Of a stretch of DNA of 13,756 nt, positions 6,301-9,322 are shown piece after piece; the stretch's first letter is position 1; every line of letters begins with the position of its first letter. The notes beneath the pieces are model-generated. The model ran no database searches and had not been told where the DNA came from. It worked only from the letters and a program-made list of their open reading frames with translations. This stretch comes from a virus (Duplodnaviria; Heunggongvirae; Uroviricota; Caudoviricetes): positions 1 to 13,756 of IMG/VR virus record IMGVR_UViG_2874945390_000001; one strand, written 5' to 3'. The translations under genes were made by a program, and so were the position numbers.

Positions 6301-7911
6301 TTATAAAAACGCGTCGCACTCGTCTGTTGTTATTGCGTTAGTCTGCGTTACCCCCTTAACTTTCCGCGTAATATATTCATGTCCGTAAACTTTTGCGGCA
6401 GGCTTCATAGCCTTGCCAAAGTCATTTACGTTTAGCGGTTTGCTCCTGCCTGCGTATGCCATAAACGCCAGATAGACGCGGTAAAGGCTGTTCCTGGTCG
6501 TGTACTTCACTGAATCACCACCGCCACCCATCATCAGGCCGCGCGCTTCCTCCAGAAAATTCAGGAACTGGCAAAACTCAATAACCGGATCCGTCTGTTG
6601 CTTTATTGCCAGTGCTTCATCACCGTCACGCTGTTCCAGTAGTAAAGCCCGTGCCTTCTCAGGGTCGGTAAAATTCGCCAGCAATCGGCGGATAATAACG
6701 GGGATTTCAGCCGCAATCTTTTCCGGTAGCTCCCTGTCTTTTTCGGCCTCACTGACGATATTGTCGAAACGGAAAATCACGCGACGACGTGCCACACCTC
6801 CGGCCCGTTCGGTGAATATCATCGGGTTGTTGTCGGTCGCCAGCACCACCGCCCTGATTACCGCCGTGAAACGCTTTTCATATTTCGGGTTAATTTCCAC
6901 GGGGTCGCCGCCCGTGATTTTCTTGATGCCCGTTCCTTCGCCTGTATATTTCGGCTGGTCAGCCAGGACGATAAGACGACTCCCGACAACCTGCGCACGT
7001 CCACCAGCATCATCAAGCGATGTCATTTCAGCGCTTACCGTGTTCTGTTTCCCTGCCAGAAGGCTGGCTATGTGTGTGAATGTACTTTTACCGCTCCCGC
7101 CGTCTCCGGTGGCCTCAATAAACATCTGCCAGTCGTACCGGTTCGCCATAATCATGTAAAGCGCGGCACATATGCGCATCATCTTGCGCGGGTCTTTTCC
7201 GGCTGCGTGATCAAGCCATTTATGAAAGTTTGGCGCGTTGTCGCGGATATTCTCCCCTGGTGCTGGTGGCGTGTACTCAATGCCGTTGTGCGTGGTGATC
7301 CAGTTCTCCGGCGTGTGCGGGGAAAATTCCCCCGTTTTCAGGTTAAGCACACCATTAGTGAACGGTAGCAAATCACTGGACGGCTCGCCCATCGGGTCAG
7401 CAATAACTTTTAACGCTTCAACGGCGTTATTAATTGCCCGCTTGCTGAATGTGGCCCCGTGTTCTGAATAAACCGCCACCATTTCGCGGCTCAGTTCCAT
7501 TGTGCTGACCGGACACCATATCTCGCCGCGCCATACGTGAACGATTTCACTTTCCGGATGCACACAAACGCCATCAAATCGACCAGCAAGCATCTGTGCG
7601 CGCTCACTGTCTGCCATCTGCGAAAGTTGCGCCTTTTGCTTTACCGGAAGCTCAATGACCAGACCATCAGAAAGATTCTGGCGTTCACGGGCCAGATATT
7701 CGCGCCAGTTCTGCACCTCCTGGCCGTGCATACCCTCAAGATAAAAATTTGCATCCTGTACACCTGCCGCCGCCAGCTTCTGACCAATCGCCTTGATCAT
7801 TACAGGCTCAAGATGTCCGGCTCTGTATATGCGTGCTGATTTTCTGCCATCCGGCACAATTTGCAGATTATCCAGTTCGGATAGCTGCTGCTCTCCAAGC
7901 CACACAGGAGG
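6301..7911 (-). pseudogene. P4-family DNA primase/helicase, C-terminal 536 codons, separated from its 5' end by the IS insertion
   Basis: Walker A GDGGSGKST and downstream motifs typical of the P4 alpha / D5-type NTPase C-terminal domain. The frame is open upstream of the annotated GTG at 7905 and runs straight into the IS left end at 7912. Confidence 0.85.
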
Positions 7912-7975
7912 TGAGGTAGCCTGAGTTTAACGGACACTCCTTCCTGAAATAGAATGGCATCAGAAGGAGCTAATA

Positions 7976-8278
7976 ATGAGCAGAAAAACCCAACGTTACT
8001 CTAAAGAGTTCAAAGCCGAAGCTGTCAGAACGGTTCTTGAAAATCAACTTTCGATCAGTGAAGGCGCTTCCCGATTATCCCTTCCTGAAGGCACTTTAGG
8101 ACAATGGGTTACCGCCGCCAGAAAAGGGCTCGGTACTCCTGGTTCCCGCACGGTGGCTGAACTGGAATCTGAAATTCTGCAACTGCGTAAGGCGTTAAAT
8201 GAAGCTCGCCTTGAGCGAGATATATTAAAAAAAGCAACAGCGTATTTTGCACAGGAGTCGCTGAAAAATACGCGTTAA
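7976..8278 (+). CDS. IS3-family transposase OrfA (HTH), IS600-like
   Basis: 100 aa. MSRKTQRYSKEFKAEAVRTV...LERDILKKATAYFA is the typical IS3-family OrfA with a leucine-zipper C-terminus; GGAG RBS upstream. Confidence 0.9.
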   Translation: MSRKTQRYSKEFKAEAVRTVLENQLSISEGASRLSLPEGTLGQWVTAARKGLGTPGSRTVAELESEILQLRKALNEARLERDILKKATAYFAQESLKNTR

Positions 8279-9132
8279 TCGAACAATGGCGACAACAATT
8301 TCCCATTGAAGCGATGTGTCAGGTATTTGGTGTATCCAGGAGCGGTTATTACAACTGGGTACAGCATGAACCCTCAGACAGAAAACAAAGTGATGAGCGG
8401 CTAAAACTGGAGATTAAGGTGGCACATATCCGCACTCGCGAAACATATGGAACCCGGCGGCTCCAGACGGAGCTGGCAGAGAATGGCATCATCGTTGGTC
8501 GTGACCGACTGGCACGTCTTCGTAAGGAGCTAAGGCTACGCTGTAAGCAGAAACGCAAGTTCAGAGCGACTACGAACCCGAACCACAATCTGCCAGTTGC
8601 GCCAAATCTGCTGAACCAGACGTTCGCTCCTACAGCACCAAATCAGGTCTGGGTGGCGGACCTGACGTATGTTGCCACACAGGAGGGATGGTTGTACCTC
8701 GCTGGCATCAAAGATGTTTATACGTGCGAAATTGTCGGCTACGCCATGGGAGAGCGCATGACAAAAGAGCTGACAGGTAAAGCCCTGTTTATGGCGCTCA
8801 GGAGCCAGCGCCCACCTGCCGGGCTAATCCACCACTCTGATCGAGGTTCACAGTACTGCGCATACGATTACCGGGTCATACAGGAGCAGTTTGGTCTGAA
8901 AACATCAATGTCGCGTAAAGGTAACTGTTACGACAACGCTCCGATGGAAAGCTTCTGGGGAACGCTGAAAAATGAGAGCCTGAGCCACTATCGTTTTAAT
9001 AACCGGGATGAAGCCGTCTCAGTAATACGGGAATACATTGAGATTTTCTACAATCGTCAGCGTCGTCACTCTCGTCTGGGGAATATCTCCCCGGCAGCCT
9101 TCAGGGAAAAATATCATCAGATGGCTGCTTAA
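8227..9132 (+). CDS. IS3-family transposase OrfB (DDE integrase domain), expressed as an OrfAB fusion by -1 frameshifting
   Basis: The -1 frame is open from the A7 slippery site (8227-8233) through 9132. DDE-type motifs are present (...VWVADLTYV..., ...HSDRGSQY..., ...YDNAPMESFWGTLK...). The first ATG in this frame is at 8314. Confidence 0.85.
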   Translation, partial: KKSNSVFCTGVAEKYALIEQWRQQFPIEAMCQVFGVSRSGYYNWVQHEPSDRKQSDERLKLEIKVAHIRTRETYGTRRLQTELAENGIIVGRDRLARLRKELRLRCKQKRKFRATTNPNHNLPVAPNLLNQTFAPTAPNQVWVADLTYVATQEGWLYLAGIKDVYTCEIVGYAMGERMTKELTGKALFMALRSQRPPAGLIHHSDRGSQYCAYDYRVIQEQFGLKTSMSRKGNCYDNAPMESFWGTLKNESLSHYRFNNRDEAVSVIREYIEIFYNRQRRHSRLGNISPAAFREKYHQMAA

Positions 9133-9178
9133 AAAAAGAACAAATGGTAGTGTCCGCTATTGCCAGTACACCTCAAGG

Positions 9179-9322
9179 CTCATTATCTCCGGCTGTACGC
9201 GCGTCATGTTCCTGCCACTGTTTCGCGTGTGCCCAGGCATCACTACCCGCAAAGATAATTACCTCTGTGTCTTTGTGTTTTATTCCGCGTGGCTGTTTTT
9301 TTACGTTCGGTGCCAGTTTCAT
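9179..9322 (-). pseudogene. N-terminal 48 codons of the IS-interrupted primase gene
   Basis: ATG at 9320-9322 overlaps the stop of the upstream 99-aa ORF (ATGA). The frame reads MKLAPNVKKQPRGIKHKDTEVIIFAGSDAWAHAKQWQEHDARTAGDNE, then the AGG target copy, then a stop inside the IS end. Removing the IS and one AGG joins it in frame to the C-terminal part (...DNEPPVWLGEQQ...). Confidence 0.7.

What the first reader, a model, noticed from the sequence alone, without database searches (positions are those of the whole stretch)
7909..9322. Primase gene split by an IS600-like insertion; the original gene can be reconstructed exactly
The 1264-bp IS3-family element is bounded by TG...CA inverted repeats and AGG direct repeats. 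The primase frame runs in phase from an ATG at 9320-9322, which overlaps the stop of the upstream 99-aa ORF, through 9179. Across the 3-bp duplication it continues into the 534-aa C-terminal part. The insertion therefore looks recent and inactivates replication by truncating the protein after about 50 residues.
Basis: seen in the sequence. Interest (0 to 1): 0.6.

Follow-up and report, generated by a model that had tools for sequence, protein, structure and literature searches.

The report
IS600 insertion splitting a satellite replication gene
A common Shigella jumping gene (IS600) has landed inside the replication gene of a small phage-parasite island in Shigella boydii and cut it after 49 codons, which is real and exactly reconstructable but an ordinary case of the insertion-sequence-driven gene decay typical of Shigella.

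Summary
Window 7912-9175 is a complete 1264-bp IS600, 99.9% identical to annotated copies. It has TG...CA ends and is flanked by a 3-bp AGG duplication (7909-7911 and 9176-9178). It sits in codon 49/50 of a minus-strand gene. Removing the IS and one AGG restores a 1755-nt, 584-aa reading frame (not about 586). This aligns end to end without gaps at about 95% identity with intact 584-aa "DNA primase family" proteins. Intact alleles occur in 623 complete E. coli genomes. A Shigella boydii draft contig carries the empty site at 99.8% nucleotide identity. The interrupted gene stops after 49 residues at a TGA formed by the IS terminus.

The host element is a PICI-type phage satellite beside yejM/tRNA-Pro in S. 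boydii CP026836.1. The same island also carries an ISSfl3 insertion with a deletion and a split integrase. Two refinements apply. "Primase" is only a family label: residues 141-579 are 40% identical to the helicase and origin-binding part of P4 alpha, but the N-terminal domain that the IS splits has no primase motifs. Loss of replication is inferred, not shown. Interest is low.

The parts
7912..9175 (+). Complete IS600 (IS3 family), 1264 bp. Its transposase genes lie on the + strand, antisense to the interrupted gene.
   Evidence: It is 99.9% identical over its full length to annotated IS600 copies. Length and ends are shown.
7912..7940 (+). Left terminal inverted repeat of IS600 (TGAGGTAGCCTGAGTTTAACGGACACTCC)
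   Evidence: Direct comparison of the two ends
9147..9175 (-). Right terminal inverted repeat of IS600. On the minus strand it reads TGAGGTGTACTGGCAATAGCGGACACTAC. Its first three bases, TGA (9175-9173), form the stop codon that ends the truncated product.
7909..7911 (.). Target-site duplication, left copy (AGG)
   Evidence: The triplet is present once in the uninterrupted alleles L001, L002 and L009.
9176..9178 (.). Target-site duplication, right copy (AGG)
7976..8278 (+). IS600 orfA (100 aa, HTH_Tnp_1)
8314..9132 (+). IS600 orfB (the ORF listed from its first ATG, 272 aa). It matches HTH_21 and the rve DDE integrase core. It is in the -1 frame relative to orfA, and the source genome calls it as one 385-aa frameshift product.
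9176..9322 (-). 5' fragment of the replication gene ('DNA primase family'). It comprises 49 codons, MKLAPNVKKQPRGIKHKDTEVIIFAGSDAWAHAKQWQEHDARTAGDNEP, followed by the TGA inside the IS.
   Evidence: The 49-aa product is called on at least 10 contigs.
6301..7911 (-). 3' fragment of the same gene, covering codons 49-584 plus the stop. It contains D5_N (residues 153-283), the SF3 P-loop module DUF5906 (316-416) and the Pox_D5 / P4-alpha-type origin-binding domain (487-576).
   Evidence: PDB hits are 7ola and 1ka8. It is 40% identical to P4 alpha residues 324-762.
9319..9618 (-). Upstream DUF4222 gene (99 aa). Its stop overlaps the start of the replication gene as ATGA.
   Evidence: The same arrangement is seen in L001 and L002.
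6053..6286 (.). Cluster of ten TRTCTACC octamers in both orientations, directly 3' of the replication gene. This is the probable iteron origin of the island, and it is intact.
   Evidence: All 10 window matches fall here, against 0.35 expected by chance. Repeats were also found. The region is conserved in L002.

Best explanation
An intact copy of IS600 transposed into codon 49/50 of the replication-initiator gene of a PICI-type phage satellite in Shigella boydii. The gene is annotated 'DNA primase family protein'. It is a relative of P4 alpha in its helicase and origin-binding part. The satellite lies next to yejM/tRNA-Pro.

Shown here:
- The insertion duplicated the 3-bp target AGG.
- Translation from the native ATG now stops after 49 residues, at a TGA supplied by the IS terminus.
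- The remaining 535 codons are left without their start. They encode the second half of the N-terminal domain, the D5_N domain, the SF3 helicase and the winged-helix origin-binding domain.
- These codons are separated from their operon promoter by 1.26 kb of antisense IS.
- The ancestral allele can be reconstructed exactly.

Inferred:
- The island can no longer make its initiator.
- It therefore cannot replicate from the intact iteron cluster just downstream of the gene after helper-phage induction.

The event is one of several lesions in this island. It fits the well-documented IS600 expansion and IS-driven pseudogenisation in Shigella.
For: IS identity and anatomy.

Exact reconstruction:
- The restored ORF is 1755 nt and 584 aa.
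- It is gap-free and 94.7-95.0% identical to intact 584-aa proteins.
- Intact genes are annotated with the same start and the same ATGA overlap in E. coli.
- 623 genomes carry an uninterrupted junction.

Empty site:
- A S. boydii draft contig (L009) is 99.78% identical across the site.
- All intact alleles read CCACACAGGAGGCTCATT.

Source and spread:
- The window equals S. boydii CP026836.1 at 100%.
- The same 49-aa stump is found on at least 10 contigs.

Gene function:
- Pfam finds D5_N, DUF5906 and Pox_D5.
- TIGR01613 scores 106.9 bits. phrog_864 'DNA primase' matches at E 5.6e-171.
- PDB sequence hits are 7ola and the P4 alpha origin-binding domain 1ka8.
- The protein is 40% identical to P4 alpha residues 324-762.
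- All ten TRTCTACC iterons lie within 250 bp 3' of the gene.

Island context:
- Integrase, an AlpA-like protein, an Ash-like protein, DUF4222, the replication gene, SSB, and capsid E-like and decoration D-like proteins are present.
- This matches the PICI core components listed in PMC10085698.
- IS600 is one of five IS expanded in all Shigella, and these drive pseudogene formation (PMC7373316).

Internal restart: no in-frame start downstream of the IS has a well-placed Shine-Dalgarno sequence.
Against: - There are no expression or replication data, so loss of function is inferred from the sequence alone.
- A helicase and origin-binding product made from an internal start, such as M86 or M147, cannot be excluded.
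- The integrase is split and an ISSfl3 insertion with a deletion of about 220 bp lies in the same island. The island may have been non-mobile before IS600 arrived, so the insertion may have had no further phenotypic consequence.
- The 'primase' activity implied by the name is not supported by recognisable catalytic motifs.
Confidence: 0.9

Rival explanations
1. The insertion does not abolish function. A shortened protein is translated from an internal start downstream of the IS, for example M86 (as annotated in RefSeq, 499 aa) or M147. It retains the complete P4-alpha-like helicase and origin-binding region and still initiates replication at the iterons.
For: - The region homologous to P4 alpha (residues 141-579) lies entirely downstream of the insertion and is intact.
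- Gene callers annotate 499-aa and 534-aa products.
- The iteron cluster is intact.
Against: - None of the in-frame ATG or GTG codons in the first 115 codons after the IS has a properly spaced Shine-Dalgarno sequence.
- Transcription would have to read through 1.26 kb of antisense IS.
- The N-terminal domain, including the part removed, is the most conserved block in the family and is retained in all full-length relatives. This argues that it is needed.
Confidence: 0.08
2. The 48 upstream codons are not part of the native gene. The true gene starts at or near 7905, and the IS lies in an intergenic or leader region.
For: the ORF listing reports the 3' part as a free-standing 534-aa ORF starting with GTG at 7905.
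Against: - Intact alleles are annotated as 584 aa from the same ATG.
- All full-length relatives among 1.84 billion representatives align from their residue 1 to query residue 1.
- The TEVIIFAG motif upstream of the insertion point is the most conserved block of the N-terminus, with E20, I23, A25 and G26 invariant.
- An AlphaFold model of residues 1-124 is one compact domain with pLDDT 92.5, and the insertion point lies inside it.
- The sequence upstream of the GTG at 7905 is CCTCCT, which is not a ribosome-binding site.
Confidence: 0.01
3. The interrupted gene is not a primase at all. It encodes a helicase/origin-binding initiator whose N-terminal domain is a non-catalytic module. The IS therefore removes an initiator rather than a priming enzyme. 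This is a rival to the label, not to the insertion event.
For: - The N-terminal 160 residues have no Pfam or NCBIfam match.
- They show no similarity to the primase part of P4 alpha.
- A profile search finds no match in PDB sequences.
- Invariant residues include neither a Toprim-type EG glutamate (the position is FAG) nor a DxD motif (the position is Y-x-AG).
- The TIGR01613 score of 106.9 is below its 108.7 cut-off, and that model covers only the helicase region.
Against: - The domain occupies the position where primase domains sit in D5, DUF927, VapE and RepA fusion proteins.
- PHROG families that include it are labelled DNA primase.
- No biochemical test has been done.
Confidence: 0.35

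Closest known systems
IS600 (IS3 family), the insertion sequence expanded in Shigella and EIEC
   Same: - The length is 1264 bp and the sequence is 99.9% identical to annotated IS600 copies.
- It has TG...CA ends and the orfA / orfB(-1) arrangement.
- It has a 3-bp target duplication and has caused gene disruption, as described for Shigella genome decay (PMC7373316).
   Different: Nothing structural differs. This is simply one more copy at one more site.
Bacteriophage P4 alpha protein (primase-helicase-origin binding, 777 aa)
   Same: - Residues 141-579 are 40% identical to alpha residues 324-762 at E 3e-110. This region covers D5_N, the SF3 helicase and the C-terminal winged-helix origin-binding domain (PDB 1ka8).
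- An octamer iteron cluster (TRTCTACC) lies close to the gene. By analogy, P4 has annotated 8-bp 'ori type 1 repeats'.
   Different: - The protein lacks alpha's N-terminal primase region of about 320 residues.
- In its place is an unrelated 125-140-residue domain with no detectable sequence similarity to it.
- The host element is not P4-like. No psu, sid or delta genes were detected among the ORFs scanned, and it carries E-like capsid and D-like decoration genes.
Primase-replicase (pri-rep) genes of Gram-negative PICI and cfPICI satellites
   Same: - The gene has the same position in an int - regulator - replication - capsid module island.
- A near-identical gene (about 95% at protein level) sits in a capsid-forming PICI with an HK97 head module and terminase genes (L001). 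This fits the reported exchange of replication modules between PICI and cfPICI (PMC10085698).
   Different: Here the gene is disrupted and the island is further degraded by an ISSfl3 insertion, a split integrase and the absence of PerC.

Membership tests
IS600 / IS3 family | Near-identity to reference IS600 over the full length of 1264 bp | tested here: met
   99.9% identity with 100% coverage to copies annotated as IS600. ISfinder itself was not available.
IS600 / IS3 family | Imperfect terminal inverted repeats ending 5'-TG...CA-3' | tested here: met
   The ends are TGAGGT...ACCTCA, with about 29-bp imperfect inverted repeats. The repeat finder at seed 9 did not report them because the exact runs are short.
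IS600 / IS3 family | Two consecutive ORFs: orfA (HTH) and orfB (DDE, rve) in the -1 frame | tested here: met
   orfA is 7976-8278 (HTH_Tnp_1). orfB is 8314-9132 (HTH_21, rve). Their frames differ by -1.
IS600 / IS3 family | Short (3-bp) target-site duplication | tested here: met
   AGG is present on both sides and only once in the empty sites of L001, L002 and L009.
P4 alpha-type primase-helicase | D5_N plus an SF3 (D5-like) P-loop helicase core | tested here: met
   D5_N matches at 1.7e-15 and DUF5906 at 1.3e-9. The protein is 40% identical to P4 alpha.
P4 alpha-type primase-helicase | C-terminal winged-helix origin-binding domain | tested here: met
   PDB 1ka8 (P4 alpha C-terminal domain) matches at E 7.4e-7 over residues 488-579. 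Pox_D5 matches residues 487-576.
P4 alpha-type primase-helicase | N-terminal DnaG/Toprim-type primase domain with the catalytic glutamate (the EGYATA motif of P4 alpha, recalled from the literature, not seen in a tool output) and a DxD motif | tested here: not met
   [not shown]
P4 alpha-type primase-helicase | NCBIfam TIGR01613 (P4-family primase C-terminal domain) at or above its cut-off | tested here: not met
   The score is 106.9 bits against a cut-off of 108.7. This is a marginal miss.
PICI (Gram-negative phage-inducible chromosomal island) | Integrase at one end, integrated at a conserved chromosomal site | tested here: met
   A Phage_integrase gene lies at the window's right end, next to yejM (L003). 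The relative L002 lies beside tRNA-Pro/yejM. In the window the integrase is split into two ORFs.
PICI (Gram-negative phage-inducible chromosomal island) | AlpA-type regulator | tested here: inconclusive
   The 68-aa ORF 11825-12031 matches Phage_AlpA at 17.6 bits, below the cut-off of 21. The homologue in L002 is annotated as an HTH regulator.
PICI (Gram-negative phage-inducible chromosomal island) | Primase-replicase module followed by a capsid-morphogenesis gene, about 10 kb in size, with no tail or lysis genes | tested here: met
   The replication gene is followed by SSB, a Phage_cap_E protein and an HDPD decoration protein. The intact relative spans about 10 kb between tRNA-Pro and yejO.
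PICI (Gram-negative phage-inducible chromosomal island) | Small terminase or packaging-redirection gene, and induction by a helper phage | not tested
   ORFs 1-300 and 672-1085 have no Pfam match. Helper dependence cannot be tested with these tools.

The most novel reading that the evidence does not exclude
The ~125-residue N-terminal domain that IS600 splits may not be a primase catalytic domain. It could instead be an uncharacterised module specific to enterobacterial phage satellites.
- It is a narrow family, with only 78 hits among 1.84 billion representative proteins.
- It is confidently predicted to form a compact alpha/beta domain.
- It resembles Toprim at best weakly and lacks the Toprim acidic residues.
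- It is found fused to four different helicase families: D5/SF3, DUF927, AAA_25/RepA and VapE.

If so, the 'DNA primase' annotation of this whole protein group would be wrong. The domain would have another role, such as recruiting host primase, sensing the helper phage or regulating the initiator.
Probability: 0.3. Interest if true: 0.4.

Novelty: already known. Interest (0 to 1): 0.12.

Why it matters
It matters little beyond correct annotation. The two 'DNA primase family' fragments and the 49-aa stump in S. boydii should be annotated as one IS600-disrupted pseudogene of a decaying phage satellite.

It is a clean, fully reconstructable example of the IS-driven gene loss already documented for Shigella. 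The shared insertion could serve as a lineage marker within S. boydii.

The only wider point is a side observation. The 'primase' name of this common enterobacterial satellite protein rests on its helicase part, and the function of its conserved N-terminal domain is unknown.

Tried and rejected
- The repeat finder with seed 9 did not report the IS terminal repeats, because they are imperfect. They were confirmed by direct comparison of the two ends.
- The restored N-terminal sequence could not be submitted to the representative-protein search, because it is not contiguous in the window. The 100%-identical S. boydii fragment P0013 was used instead.
- The Pfam and NCBIfam scans returned no family for the N-terminal domain at the thresholds used, E up to 1. 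PHROGs matched it only to phrog_2850 (unknown function), to phrog_864 (labelled 'DNA primase') and weakly to phrog_1139.
- Three further tests on the N-terminal domain also gave nothing. These were an hhalign comparison with the first 390 residues of P4 alpha (probability 3%), Foldseek against the PDB (best E 0.097, generic Rossmann-like hits) and a profile search of PDB sequences (best E 0.11).
- I considered and rejected three ideas. The first was that the upstream 48 codons are a spurious extension (see rivals). The second was that the IS is an assembly artefact: the same junction is found in a finished genome and in several independent short-read assemblies whose contigs end just inside the IS. 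The third was that the island is P4-like: it has capsid E/D-type genes, and no psu, sid or delta genes were detected in the scans.
- I looked for an internal ribosome-binding site that could rescue the 3' fragment and found none convincing.
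Full report
**1. The observation**

Reading the minus strand of 7700-9700 and extracting the ends in a script shows a 1264-bp segment at 7912-9175.
- It begins TGAGGTAGCC... and ends ...GTACACCTCA.
- Its imperfect terminal inverted repeats are about 29 bp long.
- It is flanked by AGG at 7909-7911 and at 9176-9178.

The segment is 99.9% identical over its whole length to many copies annotated 'IS3-like element IS600 family transposase' in complete E. coli genomes.
- It carries orfA (7976-8278, HTH_Tnp_1).
- It also carries orfB (8314-9132, HTH_21 plus the rve DDE core), in the -1 frame relative to orfA.
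- It is therefore IS600 itself, and apparently intact.

On the minus strand, an ATG at 9322-9320 overlaps the stop of a 99-aa DUF4222 gene as ATGA.
- The frame runs 48 codons to 9179.
- It then reads the right-hand copy of the duplication as Pro49.
- It stops at TGA, which is the first three bases of the IS terminus.
- The same frame resumes at the left-hand copy and continues to the stop at 6301. The 534-aa ORF listed from GTG 7905 corresponds to residues 51-584.

**2. The reconstruction is exact**

Deleting 7912-9178 gives a 1755-nt ORF of 584 aa.

An 800-nt synthetic junction, 400 nt from each side with a single AGG, matches 623 complete E. coli genomes colinearly over at least 80% of its length. 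The best identity is 93%.

In two relatives examined in detail, the gene is annotated as a 1755-nt 'DNA primase family protein' with the same ATGA overlap with a DUF4222 gene (L001 6790-8544; L002 6617-8371).
- The restored protein aligns with these, and with the 584-aa E. coli protein P0099, over residues 1-584. There are no gaps, and identity is 94.7-95.0%.
- BLAST of the window against L001 and L002 places the two flanks on subject coordinates that overlap by exactly 3 bp.
- The uninterrupted site reads CCACACAGGAGGCTCATT in L001, L002 and L009.

The AGG repeat is therefore a true target-site duplication, not a chance triplet.

**3. Source, spread and the empty site**

The 49-aa stump is on record for at least 10 contigs.
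- The longest is CP026836.1 (GCA_002950135.1, 5.1 Mb). It matches the whole window at 100%.
- Cluster names identify the organism as Shigella boydii.
- Several independent short-read assemblies end just inside the IS. Their flanks are 98.9-100% identical to the window. The insertion is therefore real and shared by a lineage.

A 960-bp contig from another S. boydii assembly (QWSH01000336.1, L009) encodes a fragment 100% identical to the restored N-terminus, reading straight through the insertion point. It matches the in-silico excised sequence at 99.78% over 913 nt.

Together with the perfect duplication, the 99.9% IS identity and the two still-open halves, this supports a recent insertion on the scale of Shigella lineage diversification.

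**4.

The opposite is found.
- All 32 aligned relatives begin MK.APN. The block T19-E20-x-I-I-F-A-G-S-D-A-W, upstream of the insertion point, is invariant among close relatives.
- In an exhaustive search of 1.84 billion representatives, all full-length hits (416-711 aa) align from their own residue 1.
- In a broader alignment, A4, P5, E20, I23, A25, G26, A29, P50, L53, L58, G80 and L94 are invariant.
- AlphaFold models residues 1-124 as one compact alpha/beta domain with mean pLDDT 92.5. The IS cuts between its first helix and second strand.

**5. What the gene is**

Pfam finds D5_N (153-283), DUF5906, which is the SF3 P-loop (316-416), and Pox_D5 (487-576).
- NCBIfam TIGR01613 'primase_Cterm' scores 106.9, just under its 108.7 cut-off.
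- PHROG 864 'DNA primase' matches at 5.6e-171.
- The PDB sequence search hits a 797-aa chain deposited as 'DNA primase' (7ola). I recall it as the SaPI5 primase-helicase, but did not verify this.
- That search also hits the 100-residue origin-binding domain of P4 alpha (1ka8).

Against P4 alpha itself, residues 141-579 are 40% identical to alpha 324-762 at E 3e-110. This is the helicase and origin-binding part only.

The first 140 residues have no counterpart in alpha's primase region.
- They have no Pfam or NCBIfam family.
- They have no PDB relative by profile search.
- The positions where Toprim has its EG glutamate and its DxD motif are FAG and Y-x-AG in this family. This is my reading. 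It relies on established knowledge of the Toprim motifs and is not a residue-level superposition.

So 'primase' is a family label inherited from the helicase region. Priming activity is untested and doubtful.

The same N-domain is fused in relatives to DUF927, AAA_25 (RepA-like) and VapE-like helicase modules, as well as to the D5 type.

**6. Context and mechanism**

Directly 3' of the gene, at 6053-6286, lie all ten window occurrences of TRTCTACC, in both orientations. Only 0.35 would be expected by chance. The cluster is conserved in L002.
- By analogy with the 8-bp ori repeats annotated in P4, and given the P4-alpha-type C-terminal domain, this is very probably the island's iteron origin.
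- It is intact.

The surrounding element matches the Gram-negative PICI layout given in PMC10085698. Its genes are an integrase, a weak AlpA-like HTH, an Ash-like protein, DUF4222, the replication gene, SSB, a lambda-E-like capsid protein and a D-like decoration protein. It sits beside yejM, and the relative L002 lies next to tRNA-Pro.

The most likely consequence, which is inferred, is that no initiator is made.
- The native product ends at residue 49.
- The 3' part is separated from its promoter by 1.26 kb of antisense IS.
- It has no in-frame start with a well-placed Shine-Dalgarno sequence.
- The island would therefore be unable to replicate after induction.

The main rival is rescue by an internal start that yields a helicase and origin-binding protein. 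It cannot be excluded without expression data.

**7. Comparison with what is known, and verdict**

IS600 is one of five IS expanded in all Shigella species and a main source of their pseudogenes (PMC7373316).

The same island carries further damage.
- A 2.6-kb ISSfl3 (IS66 family, 99.5% identity) lies at 3380-5973. It has a frameshifted tnpC and replaces about 220 bp present in L002.
- The integrase is split into overlapping ORFs.
- The PerC gene present in relatives is missing.

The finding is therefore correct and neatly demonstrable. It is also an ordinary instance of a known process acting on a known kind of gene in a public, annotated genome.

Interest is low. The only mildly open question is the function of the conserved N-terminal domain.

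Noticed in passing
window 3380-5973: A second insertion sequence lies in the same island. It is ISSfl3 (IS66 family), 99.3-99.5% identical to annotated copies, with tnpA (3403-4134), tnpB (4131-4478) and a tnpC split into 334-aa and 165-aa ORFs. Relative to the intact island L002, it replaces about 220 bp (L002 6078-6298, within or next to a hypothetical gene upstream of SSB). The insertion therefore came with a deletion, or the element is truncated.
   Followed up: partly
window 6053-6286: Ten copies of the octamer TRTCTACC lie here in both orientations, three of them in a 9-bp tandem. All window occurrences fall in these 234 bp, against 0.35 expected by chance. This is the probable iteron origin bound by the P4-alpha-like C-terminal domain. 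It is conserved in L002 6372-6606.
   Followed up: partly
window 12507-13756: The island integrase is split into a 298-aa ORF (12860-13756) and an overlapping 149-aa ORF (12507-12956), which implies a frameshift. The homologous integrase in E. coli L002 is also annotated as a pseudogene, with an internal stop.
   Followed up: partly
window 2940-2944 versus L002 5364-5643: The PerC-family regulator gene found between SSB and the capsid module in relatives L001 and L002 is absent from the window. About 280 bp is missing at this junction.
   Followed up: no
[not shown]
   Followed up: partly
window 1098-2500; L002 3521-4923: A satellite of about 10 kb encodes a lambda-E-type major capsid protein (351 aa) and a lambda-D-type decoration protein (115 aa), but no portal, protease or terminase. 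In L002 the capsid gene has an internal stop. What these capsid genes do in such a small island was not examined.
   Followed up: no
L001 (E. coli CFSAN061761, NZ_CP042903.1 2326058-2342857): A replication gene about 95% identical at protein level, together with its DUF4222 neighbour, sits in a different satellite type at a different chromosomal site (beside tqsA/pntB). That element is a capsid-forming PICI with an HK97 capsid, protease, portal, HNH and TerS/TerL. This shows exchange of the replication module between satellite families.
   Followed up: partly
window 10442-11173 and 11242-11439: An Ash-family (Phage_ASH) protein of 243 aa lies on the minus strand, and a small DUF3950 ORF lies on the opposite strand. 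Both are in the regulatory region between the AlpA-like gene and the replication module. Their relation to helper-phage derepression was not examined.
   Followed up: no
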